Below are positions 59,231-64,000 of a stretch of 64,000 nt of DNA, piece after piece. The position numbers and the translations under genes were made by a program. Location of the stretch: positions 3,722,607 to 3,786,606 of the forward strand of contig MU053559.1 in the NCBI GenBank assembly GCA_013239625.1, written 5' to 3'. The DNA is from Lama guanicoe (Eukaryota). Every line of letters begins with the position of its first letter. Position 1 is the first letter of the stretch. The notes below the pieces were generated by a model that did not search any database, was not told the origin of the DNA, and saw nothing but the letters and a program-made list of their open reading frames with translations.

Positions 59231-61900
59231 TGTACTACTTACAAATGAGTAGGGCTTTTTCCTTTCTCAACTACCGAGTGTCTAAGATTATTTAATTGGT
59301 GAGTGGGCAGAAAAAGGGATTTTGTGGCTGAAATACATGCTCTGTTTTATGATTTTTAATTAAGATGTTGCTATTCTTTGTGCAGACAGAGATAGTTATA
59401 AAACGTTACTTTGGATTGCTTTTGAGGAACATTTAGTCAGAATTTGTAGTCTTCTGGGAGCTATTTTGTTATACAATAGGAATAATCCTGCATATACTAA
59501 GTATTGGCCATATATTTTAAGTATGTGGGTATCATATTAAAATGTGCAAGTCCTGACAAAAGTTATAAGAAATATCCAGAAGCGTTTAAAACTGATATAG
59601 GGGCTATTAAGTAACTCATGGGATACTGCTAAGCACACACAAAGATGATGTGTTTCTAAGTTCTCAAGAACCCTTAGGAAGTAATACCTCTCACCTGCTC
59701 ATGAAACGCCAGTCTGTGTGCTGGGTTTATCCTGAGCCAGACTTGCATCTACTTTTATTTTAGTTGTGAACCATCTGGCAAGACATCACAGCCAGAAAGC
59801 AAGGTTTCTGGTCAGTTTTGGTGTTCAGATCAAATCTGACTGATAAGAAATGATATTAAAGGAAGCCCAGTGTCTTCCACTGTCACTGATGAAATGGAAG
59901 CTGGGTTCTGGAATAGAAGTGTGAACTACCGTGCAAGAAATGCCCTCTTCTTCCCCCAAATGGAAATGAACAAATTAGTCATTGGTAGTGACCATAGAAA
60001 GATTCAGGTTGAGGAGCCTGAAGCTTATATAATTGGGGTGCCCTCTCTAGGAAAAAAAAGAAGGCAAAATTTCAAAGACAAGATTCAGTATGAAACTGGT
60101 TATTTAGAATGAGAACCCAGAAAGACCTGCAGTTGTAAGGTCATAAAGCATAAGCATCATCAGCTACACTGTAAATCCAGCTCTGCTCACGACCAACTAC
60201 TTGGAGTAAAGTGTAGAAAAGGAGAAAAAGAGCCAATAATCAGGCAGAGGGAAAAATGAAAGACAAAATGCCCCTTAAGGAATACTGGAGCACAGAACAA
60301 AAAAAGACAAGAATAAAAATCCCAGAAAGAACCCTGAATTGTGAAATATGGCTGGTATGGAGGTGGGAATGGAGACAGAACTCCCAATCAATTTACACGT
60401 CATCACCATATTTATTTTCCCATGATCAATAATCATGTTGCTTCTAGGAGGCTTAAACAGGTTTTTAGAAACACCAGTCCACTTTATTGCAAGCACTTAA
60501 CAAGTGTTTGTTGACTGAATGAATCAAAGTTAACCAATGAATGAAGAGGAAACAAGGGAGACACTTCTTTTTTCGTACTCTCCACCAGGATCTGCTTTCC
60601 TGATGCTCCAAAATACATGCATGTTTTTGCTGGCACTGGCTAGAGTTGTCAAAGCAACAGCTCATGCCAATCTCTTCTCTGGTGACTAAGACTGTTATCC
60701 TAAACAGGCCAAGTTAAAAGCTATCTCCACTCAAAATTAATTTGTAAGCAGTTTCTCAAAAGGATTGTACATAAAAATGGCTACTTTGGGACACCCTATT
60801 TACTCCCTCCCACCTTATTTCTCCCTCTTACTAAATCAGATCCTTCAGGTTTATTTCAGAAATTAACCTCCTCCCATGTCTTGGACAGATTAGTGTGGGA
60901 CTCTAGCTAGAGCTGAAACACAATCCCTAAATTTCAAACATTTTACCAATGATGACAACATAAGTAACAATTTAATATATCAGTCAGTATGAGATTTCCA
61001 GGAAGATTCAGAAAAACCTCATGCACCACTCAGTTGGTCAGCTACAAACTCAAACCAGGACCAGGGGAACCCAGGATTGCCAGCTGCTCATCACAGGACA
61101 AGATTCAGGCCCTTGGGGAAGGACACAAACATACCATTCCTCTGCCCCTGCTTCTCACAGAGGGATTCCATTTGAGCAACAAATGCCCTGCACTTTCCTG
61201 CAAGTTCTTAAAAAAGAAAAAAAAACCAAAAACGGCTAGAGTAGGTTAAAACTAAGAGCTCTCTCCTCCCCGCCTATTTTAAAAACCTTTTCCTAAATGA
61301 TTCTTCCTCCTTCCTGTTCAGTTACTAAATTTTCTAAGGAAAAGCGCTTTAAGAAGAGCAGGACCTGAAAAACACGATTACTACCTCAATATTACAAAAA
61401 TCCATATACTGTTGTTCTGTTTAGGGCAAAGGATGTGAAACCAAGTGAGGCAAACCAGCCACCTTGGGAATTAGGAGTGAGGGTCTTAAATGGGAGAAAA
61501 TCACTGTCACTTCCCGGCCAGGCGGTCTGACCTCTGGATTGTTACCTCAGTTTCTTGGTTTTGTAAAACAGTGACAAATATACTGCCCGCCTCACGGGAC
61601 CGCTGAGGACTGAGAAAATCCACGTAAAGTGCTAAATATAACCGTACGGCAAGAGCTCCTTAAATGTTAGTATTTAATAGTAGGAGTAAAATGATTGTTC
61701 CTGCCTCCTGCAGTTCACACCACCAGCAAAACCCGCTCAACCCCACTCTCTCCTCGCGGGATCAGGGGCCCGACCGCTGTTGCGCTCTGTCATGCACAAG
61801 GGAGACCCCCCCCCAAAACGCCACCTAGCTAGTGCAAGTCCCTCCCCCGCCCCCCGGGCCGGCCAGGGTCCCTCAGGCTACCGCTACCGTCCACACTGAC

Positions 61901-61973
61901 CTGAGATGCCGCCTCCTATCACGACTACGTCGAACACTTGGCCCGCGTTGTCAGCCTTGTCCTGATTCTCCAT
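61901..61973 (-). CDS. MAOA: MAOA exon 1, canonical coding part (MENQDKADNAGQVFDVVVIGGGISG; FAD-binding GxGxxG)
   Basis: ATG at 61973 in strong Kozak context (AGC ATG G). 73 coding nt end at the donor CAG|GTCAGT. Matches the MAO-A N-terminus. Confidence 0.97.
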
Positions 61974-63197
61974 GCTCTGGTTGAGACTCTCCCGGGGCGT
62001 GGGTACAGGAGTGGGGCTGGCCAAGGGCGGAGCGGACTTTTCTACCGACTCTCGGGGGGAGTCCGAGGGCGGAGCCGATTCTTCCACCGATACCCGGGCG
62101 GAGCCGGGCGCTGAGGGCGGAGCGGACCCTTGGACTGGTACTCTGGGGGAACCCGGGGGTGGAGCCGATCCTTCTACCGATGTTCGGGGACTACCTAACT
62201 CAGAGAGTTCGGTGGACAGTTGAGTCGACACTGGGGAGTTCATGGGCGTACGAGGTCCCTGTATCAAACTCCAGGGGCTCCTGAGCACTCGGGGCGGGGG
62301 AGGGCCTTGTATCGACGCTTGGGAGGAGTCCGACAGGACGACAGATTCTTGTCCTGAACTCCCAGGGAGGCTGAGGTCTGAGGGCGGGTAGGACCCTTGT
62401 ATCGACTCTAGGGAGGAGTCCAAGAGCCGGGGGAAGTCGGGTATTGAGAACTGGCTGGACTCTTGTACTGGCAGTCGCGGGGGGTTGTTGAGGGTAGGAG
62501 GTACTTCTACCGAACTCTGGGAGGAGATGGATAGTGAGGACGGGACGAGCCCAAGTAGTGACATTTGCGGAATATTACGGGATAGAGGAGGTGACATTAT
62601 TCTGATGGAGTCAGGCATCGAGGGCGAGATGGATTCTTGTACCGCCGCTCTGAGGAACTTTCTGGGTATAGGAGTCCCTGCTACCCGGGGGAACCCAGGT
62701 ACTGAGGATGGGCCGGACTCATGGAGGGGCAACCTGGAGGAGCCTGAGGGCGAGACAGATCCCTGTTCGGATACCCGGGGGATGCTGGTGTCCGGGTTAG
62801 AGGCTGGGACGGCCCCCTCAGAGTTGGGAGAACGGGTGACAGACATGGGGATCTGGTCGCTAAGGCGGAGGGCGCCAAAGTCCCAGAGGCCAACCTTGGT
62901 GTTCGGGTCAGTTGTCAGGTCAAAATCCGTGCTTATTTGGGCGGACGCGCTGGCGCTTTGGGAGTATGTCACGTCTGGTGTGGACTCGTTCGACAGGGAG
63001 CTGGAAAACAGTCCGGAGACGGTCCGCCACTCAGATTGCATGCTCCACTCGGGAGTGGAGGGCAAGGCCGTGCCCAAGGTGGAGGCCGGGTCCGGGATCT
63101 GGGCAGTGGTGTCCCCGGCTCTGGGTGGACGCTCGGCCTCGTGCCGTCTCTCGCCGCTGTTGTTGCTGGGGGAGGCCTCTGAGTTGTGGGCGCTCAT
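61974..63197 (-). CDS. Putative 408-aa Ser/Pro-rich N-terminal extension, in frame with MAOA exon 1
   Basis: ORF 63197->61884 has no stop. ATG 63197 is 1224 nt (408 codons) upstream of the canonical ATG. An in-frame TGA at 63249-63251 closes the frame upstream. Translation is not demonstrated. Confidence 0.5.
62020..62170 (-). promoter_or_regulatory. Proximal MAOA core promoter: tandem GC boxes (Sp1/KLF) in a 42/48-bp (90-bp) repeat
   Basis: GGGCGGAGC at 62025, 62067, 62096 and 62115; GGGTGGAGC at 62157. The human MAOA core promoter is known to have two 90-bp Sp1-site repeats. Confidence 0.8.
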
Positions 63198-63199
63198 TG

Positions 63200-63720
63200 T
63201 TCCGGAGTGCGCGCGGGCGGCGGTGCTGGGGGCAACTTTCAGCTCTCCTCAGGCCCTCCCTCTCACAGGCGCTCGCCTCTCCCGCCCAAGCTGTTCCCGA
63301 TCCGCCCTCTCGGAGACCTGCCTCGGGAGCCCCGCCCACTTTGAGGGGGCGACGCGGCGCTGAAGCGGCCTGGCCCCGCCCTTCCCGCCTGTACGCGGCG
63401 CGCGCGCGCGTTGGGGGCGCACTCCCGCCCGGTAAGGCCGGACGACGCCACCGAAGTGGGGGTGTGGCTGGATGAAGGTGTGGGCGGGGACACGTGGGGG
63501 TTTCAACCTGGTGCTTTTATTCTTACACTTTAACTAAAATAGGACTGGGCGGAGGGCGTCGGGGGTGGGTTTAGGGAAGCCGGTACTGAAGAAAGCGGAC
63601 CCGGACCGCGAACTCGCAAGGCGCCCCCCCTCACACACCTGGTCTGGCCCCTTTGTGACGTCACAAGGGGCCGGTGAGGTCTGCGCAGTCGCGCGCCCTC
63701 CTTGTGGGGGGAGGGGTGAA
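63200..63720 (-). promoter_or_regulatory. Distal CpG-island promoter-like region
   Basis: Dense CpG with several GC boxes, a (CG)n run near 63398-63410, an E-box CACGTG at 63491 and a full CRE TGACGTCA at 63656-63663. Confidence 0.7.
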
Positions 63721-64000
63721 GTGAGAAATGTCCCTAGGGGGAGGCTTGGCAGTTATTGGTTTTCTATACGGTTTTTCAAGCTGAAGTTCTTAAAATTGAA
63801 GCAAGTAGGCGAGAAAATTAAGAACTCAGCTATCACAAATTAAGTGGGACCTGCAATTTAAAAGCGAAGGTCAAAGGATGGCTAAGTTGCAGAACCAAAT
63901 TAAAAAAGATGTGTTTCCCCATCCTACTGAAAAGAGGAATATTTACTATGTATATTTTATTGTGCATCAGCCCTTGTCTTGCTAGTTTTATCCCTTCCTT

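What the first reader, a model, noticed from the sequence alone, without database searches (positions are those of the whole stretch)
63030..63210. Start of the extension appears homologous to the human MAOA-uVNTR site, which would place the 30-bp VNTR in a reading frame
Established: the human uVNTR is a 30-bp (10-codon) repeat about 1.2 kb upstream of the MAOA ATG; the ATG here is at -1224. From memory, and unverified: the human uVNTR amplicon reads ...CCAGAAAC ATG AGC ACA AAC...[repeat]...GCC GGG GGC ACA ACT GCC CAG GTC CCG AAC CCG...TCC GAA TGG AGC. Seen here: ...CCGGAACA ATG AGC GCC CAC...GCC GGG GAC ACC ACT GCC CAG ATC CCG GAC CCG...CCC GAG TGG AGC. These align codon for codon (AGGTTAQVPNP..SEWS vs AGDTTAQIPDP..PEWS) with a shared ATG. 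There is no VNTR at that position in this window. Inference: the human polymorphism may be an in-frame expansion inside an ancestral coding sequence or upstream ORF.
Basis: partly seen in the sequence, partly recalled or inferred. Interest (0 to 1): 0.8.

Follow-up and report, generated by a model that had tools for sequence, protein, structure and literature searches.

The report
MAOA repeat lies in ancestral frame
The flagged bases start a long open reading frame that runs into the MAOA enzyme gene, and they match the spot where primates carry the well-known MAOA "promoter" repeat, so that repeat grew inside a frame most mammals still keep open.

Summary
Observation confirmed and interpretation supported; translation is not shown. 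On the minus strand an ATG at 63197 opens 408 stop-free codons that run in frame into the canonical MAOA ATG at 61973. None of 5000 dinucleotide shuffles was stop-free. These 408 residues equal the N-terminus of the alpaca RefSeq MAOA model. Extended MAOA models or ORFs with at least 277 in-frame upstream codons exist for 47 named mammals in six orders.

The start aligns codon for codon with a hominid-like ORF (E 1.8e-14). Both share the Met, then a low-complexity patch, then conserved flanks. In the hominid-like record the patch is (TGTGTSTRTS)x3.5, which is the published 30-bp uVNTR unit read in frame. In marmoset and tamarin the patch is a Thr-Gly run in frame with MAOA. Alpaca has no repeat there. 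A published human uVNTR reverse primer hits the window once, at 63095-63112, in the same codon phase.

In the hominid-like record one frame change 251 codons after the ATG uncouples the frame from MAOA. That leaves a 402-codon upstream ORF.

The extension is Ser/Pro-rich, predicted disordered and weakly constrained. Its proximal third is the Sp1-box core promoter. The extension already exists in databases. I found the link to the uVNTR in no paper.

The parts
63195..63197 (-). Upstream ATG. It is the first ATG on this strand below 63922. Context: A at -3 and A at +4.
61974..63197 (-). 408-codon open frame (Ser 21%, Pro 15%) in phase with MAOA. Identical to residues 1-408 of the Vicugna pacos RefSeq MAOA model.
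63030..63210 (-). The flagged stretch: the last 13 nt of the leader plus codons 1-56 of the extension.
63141..63170 (-). Approximate homologue of the uVNTR position (codons 10-19, PSNNSGERRH). It is single copy here, Gly/Ser-rich in most Laurasiatheria, a Thr-Gly run in marmoset and tamarin, and (TGTGTSTRTS)x3.5 in the hominid-like record.
   Evidence: alignment
63095..63112 (+). The only window match (15 of 18 bases) to the published human uVNTR reverse primer. It lies in the same codon phase relative to the ATG as in the hominid-like ORF.
63042..63119 (-). Conserved block AGDTTAQIPDPASTLG..PEWS (codons 27-52), followed by SEWRTVS. It aligns with AGGTTAQVPNP..SEWS of the hominid-like ORF.
62023..62779 (-). 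Decayed 90-bp repeat family inside the frame. Copy spacings are 90, 177, 90, 66, 258 and 240, all multiples of 3. Each unit encodes an S-A-P-P type motif.
62025..62120 (-). Four CCGCCC (Sp1-type) boxes within 150 nt of the canonical ATG. This is the proximal core-promoter part of the frame.
   Evidence: for positions; passage on four Sp1 sites at -239/-14 in human
63198..63750 (-). CpG-island leader and candidate distal promoter. It is ATG-free, has five GGGCGG boxes (63287-63430) and a TGACGTCA palindrome starting at 63663.
61901..61973 (-). Canonical MAOA exon 1 coding part (MENQDKADNAGQVFDVVVIGGGIS, then the split Gly codon). The GT donor is at 61899-61900.

Best explanation
The flagged bases are the first 56 codons of a 408-codon N-terminal leader of MAOA. 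Shown: the frame runs from an ATG at 63197 into the canonical start at 61973 without a stop, and it is the extension already written into the alpaca RefSeq model and into models for 46 other named mammals. Also shown: its start is orthologous to the primate uVNTR site. A conserved Met is followed by a short low-complexity patch that is single copy in alpaca, Gly/Ser-rich in most Laurasiatheria, a Thr-Gly run in New World monkeys, and the 30-bp, 10-codon uVNTR in the hominid-like record. Inferred mechanism: transcripts from a distal CpG-island promoter carry this ATG as their first AUG. Ribosomes read a disordered Ser/Pro-rich leader in frame into the enzyme. Selection keeps the frame free of stops and frameshifts, so that long transcripts still yield enzyme instead of ending in a long upstream ORF, while the residues themselves drift. 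The proximal third of the same DNA also serves as the Sp1-box core promoter of the abundant short mRNA. In the hominid-like record a single frame change 251 codons after the ATG has uncoupled the frame from MAOA. There the uVNTR now sits in a 402-codon upstream ORF of the minor long transcript.
For: Open frame.
- 408 codons have 0 stops, while the other two sense frames have 13 and 11.
- Dinucleotide shuffles average 10.0 stops, and 0 of 5000 have none.
- The sequence is identical (408 of 408) to Vicugna pacos XP_006213459.2.

Frame conservation.
- 47 named species have at least 277 in-frame codons upstream of the canonical Met. They span Artiodactyla including whales, Perissodactyla, Carnivora, Chiroptera, Eulipotyphla and Primates. 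Names come, and lengths.
- Four unnamed Logan ORFs add 309-456 codons each. One has a rodent-like MAOA start.
- 3.1% of single-base changes in this frame would create a stop. That gives about 7.7-11.5 new stops expected at 0.2-0.3 substitutions per site. Those divergences are my assumption for between-order distances.

uVNTR homology: as set out in the observation check.
- P0004 is consistent with the same DNA as the Homo-labelled P0007. Three segments of 86, 77 and 85 codons have 1, 0 and 1 inconsistent positions.
- P0004 is collinear with the Nasalis ORF, which is in frame with MAOA, apart from one frame change. 124 residues align in frame 0 and 152 at offset 2, with no gaps.

First AUG.
- There is no ATG in the 724 nt upstream. 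Shuffles average 3.1 ATGs, and 2.65% of shuffles have none.
- 7 of 8 ATGs inside the leader are in frame (binomial P 0.0026).

Long transcript in human. A second TSS about 1.3 kb upstream places the uVNTR in a transcribed leader that makes up 5-8% of MAOA mRNA in HAP1 cells (PMC5874270, passages).

No fold. There is no Pfam family. AlphaFold2 with 25 aligned sequences gives mean pLDDT 39 and no secondary structure.
Against: - No translation evidence of any kind was available.
- I have no laid RNA evidence for this species.
- All 18 long hits come from genome annotation (sources ncbi, uniref, nr). None comes from a transcript assembly.
- Spliced or transcript-type ORFs in the same clusters carry only 46-93 upstream codons (P0011, P0126, P0131-P0133). 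That is what the canonical start site would give.
- Residue-level constraint is weak. Alpaca and camel differ at 29 of 408 extension residues but only 6 of 527 enzyme residues.
- Differences among the internal repeat copies show no third-position excess: 160, 147 and 163 at codon positions 1, 2 and 3.
- The scarcity of out-of-frame ATGs is explained by codon composition. Codon-order shuffles give P 0.49.
- Part of the conservation can be DNA-level, because the proximal part is the Sp1 promoter.
- Ascertainment is biased. Databases list open frames only, and many species carry 527-residue models that say nothing about the upstream frame.
- Broken or partial cases exist: P0004, the Pteropus 206-residue fragment, and Rousettus with 67 upstream codons.
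- From memory: purified MAOA is about 60 kDa and starts at the canonical Met, so any extended form must be minor.
Confidence: 0.7

Rival explanations
1. The frame is never translated. It is promoter and CpG-island DNA built from 3n-period repeats, and the long MAOA models are a product of annotation pipelines choosing the longest open frame.
For: - Repeat spacings are all multiples of 3, so unit-sized indels keep the frame without selection.
- There is no third-position bias among repeat copies.
- Residue conservation is weak.
- There is no fold or family.
- All long hits are annotation-derived.
- The proximal part is the known Sp1 core promoter.
Against: - Composition and dinucleotides predict about 10 stops in this frame. 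The observed count is 0, while the two other sense frames carry 13 and 11.
- The distal 420 nt, which includes the uVNTR homologue, lies outside the repeat family yet is also open and aligns across orders.
- The frame is open in 47 named species of six orders at 35-60% residue identity. Repeat-unit indels cannot explain that, because point mutations would still create stops.
Confidence: 0.2
2. The upstream frame is or was a separate gene for a Ser/Pro-rich protein lying head-to-tail before MAOA. Gene models fuse the two by accident.
For: Some pipelines model it alone. Examples are the Pteropus 'WAS/WASL-interacting protein family member 1-like' and the Rhinolophus sinicus 'putative protein TPRXL'. 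Felid models are named 'mucin-19-like'.
Against: - In every intact case the frame is in phase with the MAOA ATG and has no stop before it. A separate gene would not need that.
- The stand-alone models are fragments.
- There is no family or fold.
Confidence: 0.04

Closest known systems
Human MAOA uVNTR and the long transcript that carries it (isoform 204; PMC5874270, passages read)
   Same: - Same locus and same distance from the MAOA ATG (1224 nt here; about 1.2 kb according to the finding text).
- Same start codon just 5' of the repeat position, same flanks and the same primer site.
- A second, upstream start site is described for human.
   Different: - The window has no tandem repeat at the site.
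- Here the frame continues into MAOA. In the hominid-like record it shifts after 251 codons and stops about 23 codons before the MAOA ATG.
- The literature treats the repeat as non-coding promoter or 5'UTR sequence.
Extended MAOA gene models in RefSeq, Ensembl and UniProt (for example Vicugna pacos XP_006213459.2 at 935 aa, Felis catus isoform X1 at 1126 aa, Callithrix jacchus at 930 aa)
   Same: The window's 408 residues are identical to the alpaca model. The start motif MS.H.S.AS is shared by 19 of the 25 aligned sequences.
   Different: These are computed models with no experimental support that I could find. No paper in the library describes them.
In-frame coding minisatellites such as the DRD4 exon III 48-bp repeat and the PER3 54-bp repeat (recalled, not checked here)
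   Same: The unit length is a multiple of 3 (30 bp in human, 18 bp in macaque). Alleles differ by whole codons. The repeat lies in a low-complexity, disordered segment.
   Different: Translation of the MAOA repeat is unproven. In the hominid-like record the ORF that holds it is no longer joined to the enzyme.
N-terminally extended isoforms made from upstream start codons or alternative promoters, for example PTEN-L (recalled)
   Same: There is an upstream in-frame start, a disordered extension, and a canonical shorter form that dominates.
   Different: Here the start is an AUG and the extension is far longer (277-630 codons). The same DNA is also the promoter of the short form.

Membership tests
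Orthologue of the primate MAOA uVNTR site | Lies about 1.2 kb upstream of the MAOA start codon on the gene strand. | tested here: met
   The ATG is at 63197 and the MAOA ATG at 61973, 1224 nt apart.
Orthologue of the primate MAOA uVNTR site | Flanks align with the sequence on both sides of the repeat. | tested here: met
   Window residues 11-141 align to P0004 residues 116-246 at E 1.8e-14. The multiple alignment agrees. The human reverse primer has one hit, at 63095-63112. A reverse primer recalled from memory and the macaque forward primer gave no ungapped match at 3 mismatches or fewer.
Orthologue of the primate MAOA uVNTR site | A tandem repeat is present at the site. | tested here: not met
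   Tandem Repeats Finder reports nothing in 63030-63210. The site is single copy in this species.
In-frame (coding-type) minisatellite | Unit and allele lengths are multiples of 3. | tested here: met
   The human unit is 30 bp plus a 15-bp half unit (PMC6390082, Fig. 1 legend). Human PCR products are 209, 239 and 269 bp (PMC3885205, Table 1). The macaque unit is 18 bp x 5-7 (PMC10395878, passage).
In-frame (coding-type) minisatellite | The repeat lies inside an open frame that starts at an ATG. | tested here: met
   In P0004 the Met at residue 75 opens a 402-codon frame that reads the repeat as TGTGTSTRTS. In Saguinus and Callithrix the Thr-Gly run is in frame with MAOA.
In-frame (coding-type) minisatellite | The frame is translated. 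| not testable with these tools
   No Ribo-seq or proteome data are on hand.
N-terminally extended MAOA isoform | An upstream ATG is in phase with the canonical ATG, with no stop between them. | tested here: met
   The sequence is identical to the RefSeq model.
N-terminally extended MAOA isoform | An mRNA starts upstream of that ATG and is spliced to exon 2. | tested here: inconclusive
Human has such a start site.
N-terminally extended MAOA isoform | A protein of about 100 kDa is detected. | not testable with these tools
   None.
Any Pfam domain family (for the extension) | A significant profile match. | tested here: not met
   P0001 matches 0 families. The enzyme part of P0013 matches Amino_oxidase at 431-868.

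The most novel reading that the evidence does not exclude
Many mammals really make a second, roughly 100-kDa MAOA carrying a 280-630-residue disordered N-terminal leader, translated from distal-promoter transcripts. The primate uVNTR began as a coding Thr-Gly-type repeat in that leader. In humans its alleles change the length of a translated 402-codon upstream ORF. Part of the uVNTR effect would then act through translation or stability of the long transcript, and not only through transcription.
Probability: 0.25. Interest if true: 0.85.

Novelty: new member of a known kind. Interest (0 to 1): 0.66.

Why it matters
The MAOA uVNTR is one of the most cited behavioural-genetics polymorphisms, and it is treated as a non-coding promoter repeat. 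A 2025 review still calls it an ncVNTR (PMC12776774, passage).

This work places it inside a reading frame that is kept open and joined to the enzyme in most sampled mammals. That has three consequences.
- It explains why the repeat's period is a whole number of codons.
- It dates the loss of the frame to the lineage of the hominid-like record, after the split from Old World monkeys.
- It gives a concrete, testable alternative route for allele effects, through translation of the long transcript.

It also raises an unanswered question about a drug-target enzyme: do the extended MAOA proteins written into dozens of reference annotations actually exist?

Tried and rejected
- Laying RNA reads. The shares of 0.32-0.38 for RNA or RNA-guessed runs were therefore never laid, and I do not use them as evidence.
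- Primer matches. A uVNTR reverse primer recalled from memory gave no match at 3 mismatches or fewer. The macaque forward primer gave none either, because the window has one extra codon after ATG-AGC.
- Third-position test. Among the internal 75-nt repeat copies the differences were 160, 147 and 163 by codon position, so there is no bias. The copies are only 60-76% alike, so the test has little power.
- Out-of-frame ATG depletion. It looked significant against dinucleotide shuffles (P 0.03) but not against codon-order shuffles (P 0.49). I rejected it as independent evidence.
- Earlier notes of this scan: nothing found.
- The whole genome is held, but no relatives are, so no DNA-level dN/dS was possible.
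- Pfam and AlphaFold2 gave no family and no fold.
- Literature. Searches for an N-terminal extension, an open reading frame or a uORF of MAOA found nothing relevant. One search was badly framed and useless.
- The Homo-labelled P0007 is not a contiguous translation. Relative to P0004 it skips 41 nt and about 143 codons. I used it only as a witness of the DNA, not as a transcript.

Full report
**What is in the window**

MAOA lies on the minus strand. tblastn with a bat MAOA places exons 1-9 between 61899 and 5151. Exon 1 ends at a GT donor at 61899-61900. The canonical start codon is at 61973.

An ATG at 63197 lies 1224 nt upstream and in the same frame, and all 408 codons between the two are open. 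An in-frame TGA closes the frame 17 codons above that ATG. The other two sense frames of the same 1224 nt carry 13 and 11 stops. Dinucleotide-preserving shuffles carry 10.0 stops on average, and 0 of 5000 have none.

**Anatomy**

The leader is 62% G+C, 21% Ser and 15% Pro. The stretch from 61974 to 63750 behaves as a CpG island, with observed/expected CpG of 0.66-0.84.

The proximal 750 nt (62023-62779) is a decayed 90-bp repeat family. Its copy spacings are 90, 177, 90, 66, 258 and 240, all multiples of 3. Four CCGCCC boxes lie within 150 nt of the canonical ATG. A passage in PMC6390082 describes four Sp1 sites at -239/-14 in the human core promoter. This part of the frame is therefore also the promoter of the ordinary short mRNA.

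Upstream of 63197 there is no ATG on this strand for 724 nt. Shuffles average 3.1 ATGs, and 2.65% of shuffles have none. The same stretch holds five GGGCGG boxes and a TGACGTCA palindrome. Inside the leader, 7 of 8 ATGs are in frame. Codon-order shuffles show that this follows from codon composition, so I do not count it as separate evidence.

The extension matches no Pfam family. AlphaFold2 with 25 aligned sequences gives mean pLDDT 39 and no secondary structure. I read it as disordered.

**It is an annotated extension, and it is widespread**

A search of 1.84 billion representative proteins gave 7 hits. Word-indexed searches gave 5 hits of similar length and 18 longer ones. Cluster look-ups added more members.

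The 408 residues are identical to the N-terminus of Vicugna pacos XP_006213459.2, which is 935 aa long. Camel models are 93% identical.

By my count from the names and the lengths, 47 named species have at least 277 in-frame codons upstream of the canonical Met:
- 14 artiodactyls including whales
- 3 equids
- 23 carnivores
- 2 horseshoe bats
- 1 mole
- 4 primates (Microcebus, Callithrix, Saguinus, Nasalis)

Four unnamed Logan ORFs add 309-456 codons each. One of them has a rodent-like MAOA N-terminus, an assignment I make from memory.

Of the 25 sequences in alignment A1, 19 begin at the homologous Met with a shared motif MS.H.S.AS. One model (Mirounga) starts 14 codons further upstream. Five start at a conserved internal Met or lower.

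Many species have 527-residue models. Those say nothing about the upstream frame. This sample is also not unbiased, because databases list open frames only.

**The link to the uVNTR**

P0004 is a 476-residue ORF from an unnamed chromosome-scale NCBI record. It contains a Met at residue 75, then STNASASFPGG, then TGTGTSTRTS three and a half times, then ERKAEGPPEAGGTTAQVPNP..SLSEWS.

The 30-bp unit printed in PMC6390082 (Fig. 1 legend) translates to TGTGTSTRTS, PAPAPVPAPV and RHRHQYPHQY in its three frames. P0007 is labelled Homo sapiens (EAW59382.1) and shows the RHRHQYPHQY reading.

A two-frame consistency check shows that P0004 and P0007 can come from the same DNA. Three segments of 86, 77 and 85 codons have 1, 0 and 1 inconsistent positions.

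phmmer aligns window residues 11-141 to P0004 residues 116-246 at 44% identity and E 1.8e-14. In the multiple alignment the start Met coincides. The repeat falls where alpaca has SPSNNSGERRH, where whales, carnivores, horse and bats have Gly/Ser runs, and where marmoset and tamarin have a Thr-Gly run.

The published human reverse primer has its only window match at 63095-63112. That match starts 85 nt after the A of the ATG. By my count on P0004 the same site starts 175 nt after the ATG. Both are 1 modulo 3, so the codon phase is the same.

A macaque primer printed in PMC10395878 contains the ATG followed by Ser-Thr-Asn codons. The macaque repeat unit is 18 bp. Human alleles are 30n+15 bp. All of these are whole codons.

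**How far the frame stays open in primates**

Microcebus isoform X1 (393 upstream codons), Callithrix (403) and Saguinus (414) are open from the conserved Met into MAOA. Nasalis is open for at least 300 codons.

P0004 is collinear with Nasalis without gaps, but it changes frame once near residue 325. From the Met it therefore has 251 codons in the conserved frame and then about 150 in another frame. It stops about 23 codons before the MAOA ATG.

I could not see a human-labelled sequence across the shift site itself, so whether human has the shift is inferred. P0007 skips 41 nt and about 143 codons relative to P0004. I regard it as a frame-patched model.

**Coding or not**

The argument for translation is the frame. 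Translation is the only known process that distinguishes one reading frame from the other two.

In this frame 3.1% of single-base changes would create a stop. At between-order divergences of 0.2-0.3 substitutions per site, which is my assumption, that predicts 7.7-11.5 new stops per lineage. Frameshifts would add to that. Yet residue identity between orders is only 35-60%.

Repeat-unit indels could preserve the phase without selection in the proximal part. They cannot prevent stops, and the distal 420 nt lies outside the repeat family.

Several points speak against a functional protein. Alpaca and camel differ at 29 of 408 extension residues against 6 of 527 enzyme residues. Repeat copies show no third-position bias. 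All long hits come from annotation. Transcript-type ORFs carry only 46-93 upstream codons. The known enzyme starts at the canonical Met (recalled).

My reading is that the leader is translated from minor distal-promoter transcripts. Such transcripts are documented for human, where they make up 5-8% of MAOA mRNA in HAP1 cells (PMC5874270). Selection acts on keeping the frame joined to the enzyme, and not on the residues. I give this 0.7, with 0.2 for an untranslated by-product.

**Literature**

I read passages of PMC5874270, PMC6390082, PMC10395878, PMC12776774, PMC3885205 and PMC12025284. I read no whole papers and no supplements.

Searches for 'monoamine oxidase A' with 'N-terminal extension' (12 papers, none relevant by title or abstract), 'MAOA' with 'uVNTR' and 'open reading frame' (1 paper, a review on panic disorder), and 'MAOA' with 'uORF' (7 papers, none relevant) found no description of this frame. 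Subscription journals are not covered.

**Verdict**

The homology is secure. The inference that the uVNTR expanded in frame inside an ancestral MAOA leader ORF is supported. The extension itself is already in reference annotations. The connection to the uVNTR appears unreported. Translation remains to be shown.

Noticed in passing
62023-62779: A decayed 90-bp repeat family lies inside the frame, and every copy spacing is a multiple of 3. The units encode ..S-A-P-P.. where the DNA reads CCGCCC (Sp1-type box), so the same bases would serve as promoter element and codons.
   Followed up: partly
related proteins P0023/P0096, P0110/P0093/P0025: Extension length differs between close relatives by about one repeat unit. 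Equus has 395 vs 425 codons, and felids have 556, 599-600 and 630. This suggests copy-number change of the ~30-residue unit inside the extension in other mammals. Some felid models are named 'mucin-19-like'.
   Followed up: no
63640-63680: A TGACGTCA (CRE-like) palindrome starts at 63663 and sits inside a longer inverted repeat. Five GGGCGG boxes follow at 63287-63430. This is a candidate distal promoter.
   Followed up: no
63250-63281: A 16-bp unit is repeated 1.9 times (score 48) just upstream of the ATG. It is the only tandem repeat TRF reports in 61500-64000.
   Followed up: no
62485-63363 (+ strand): A 292-residue antisense open frame overlaps the extension. That antisense frame has only 2 stops over the 1224 nt. 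It is probably a by-product of the codon composition of the sense frame.
   Followed up: no
P0007 (Homo sapiens EAW59382.1): This deposited human model reaches MAOA in frame only by skipping 41 nt and about 143 codons relative to the contiguous hominid-like ORF. It also joins an AT-rich upstream exon just before the ATG. It looks like a frame-patched computational model.
   Followed up: partly
window codon 117 (Met, 62847-62849): A second conserved in-frame Met (..IPMSATR..) is where the hippopotamus, reindeer, sheep, mole and Microcebus X2 models start. It may be an alternative start, or the limit of an open frame in those species.
   Followed up: no
61602-61642: A short stretch of intron 1 tripped the read-laying filter. 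The tool states that this is no evidence of anything.
   Followed up: no
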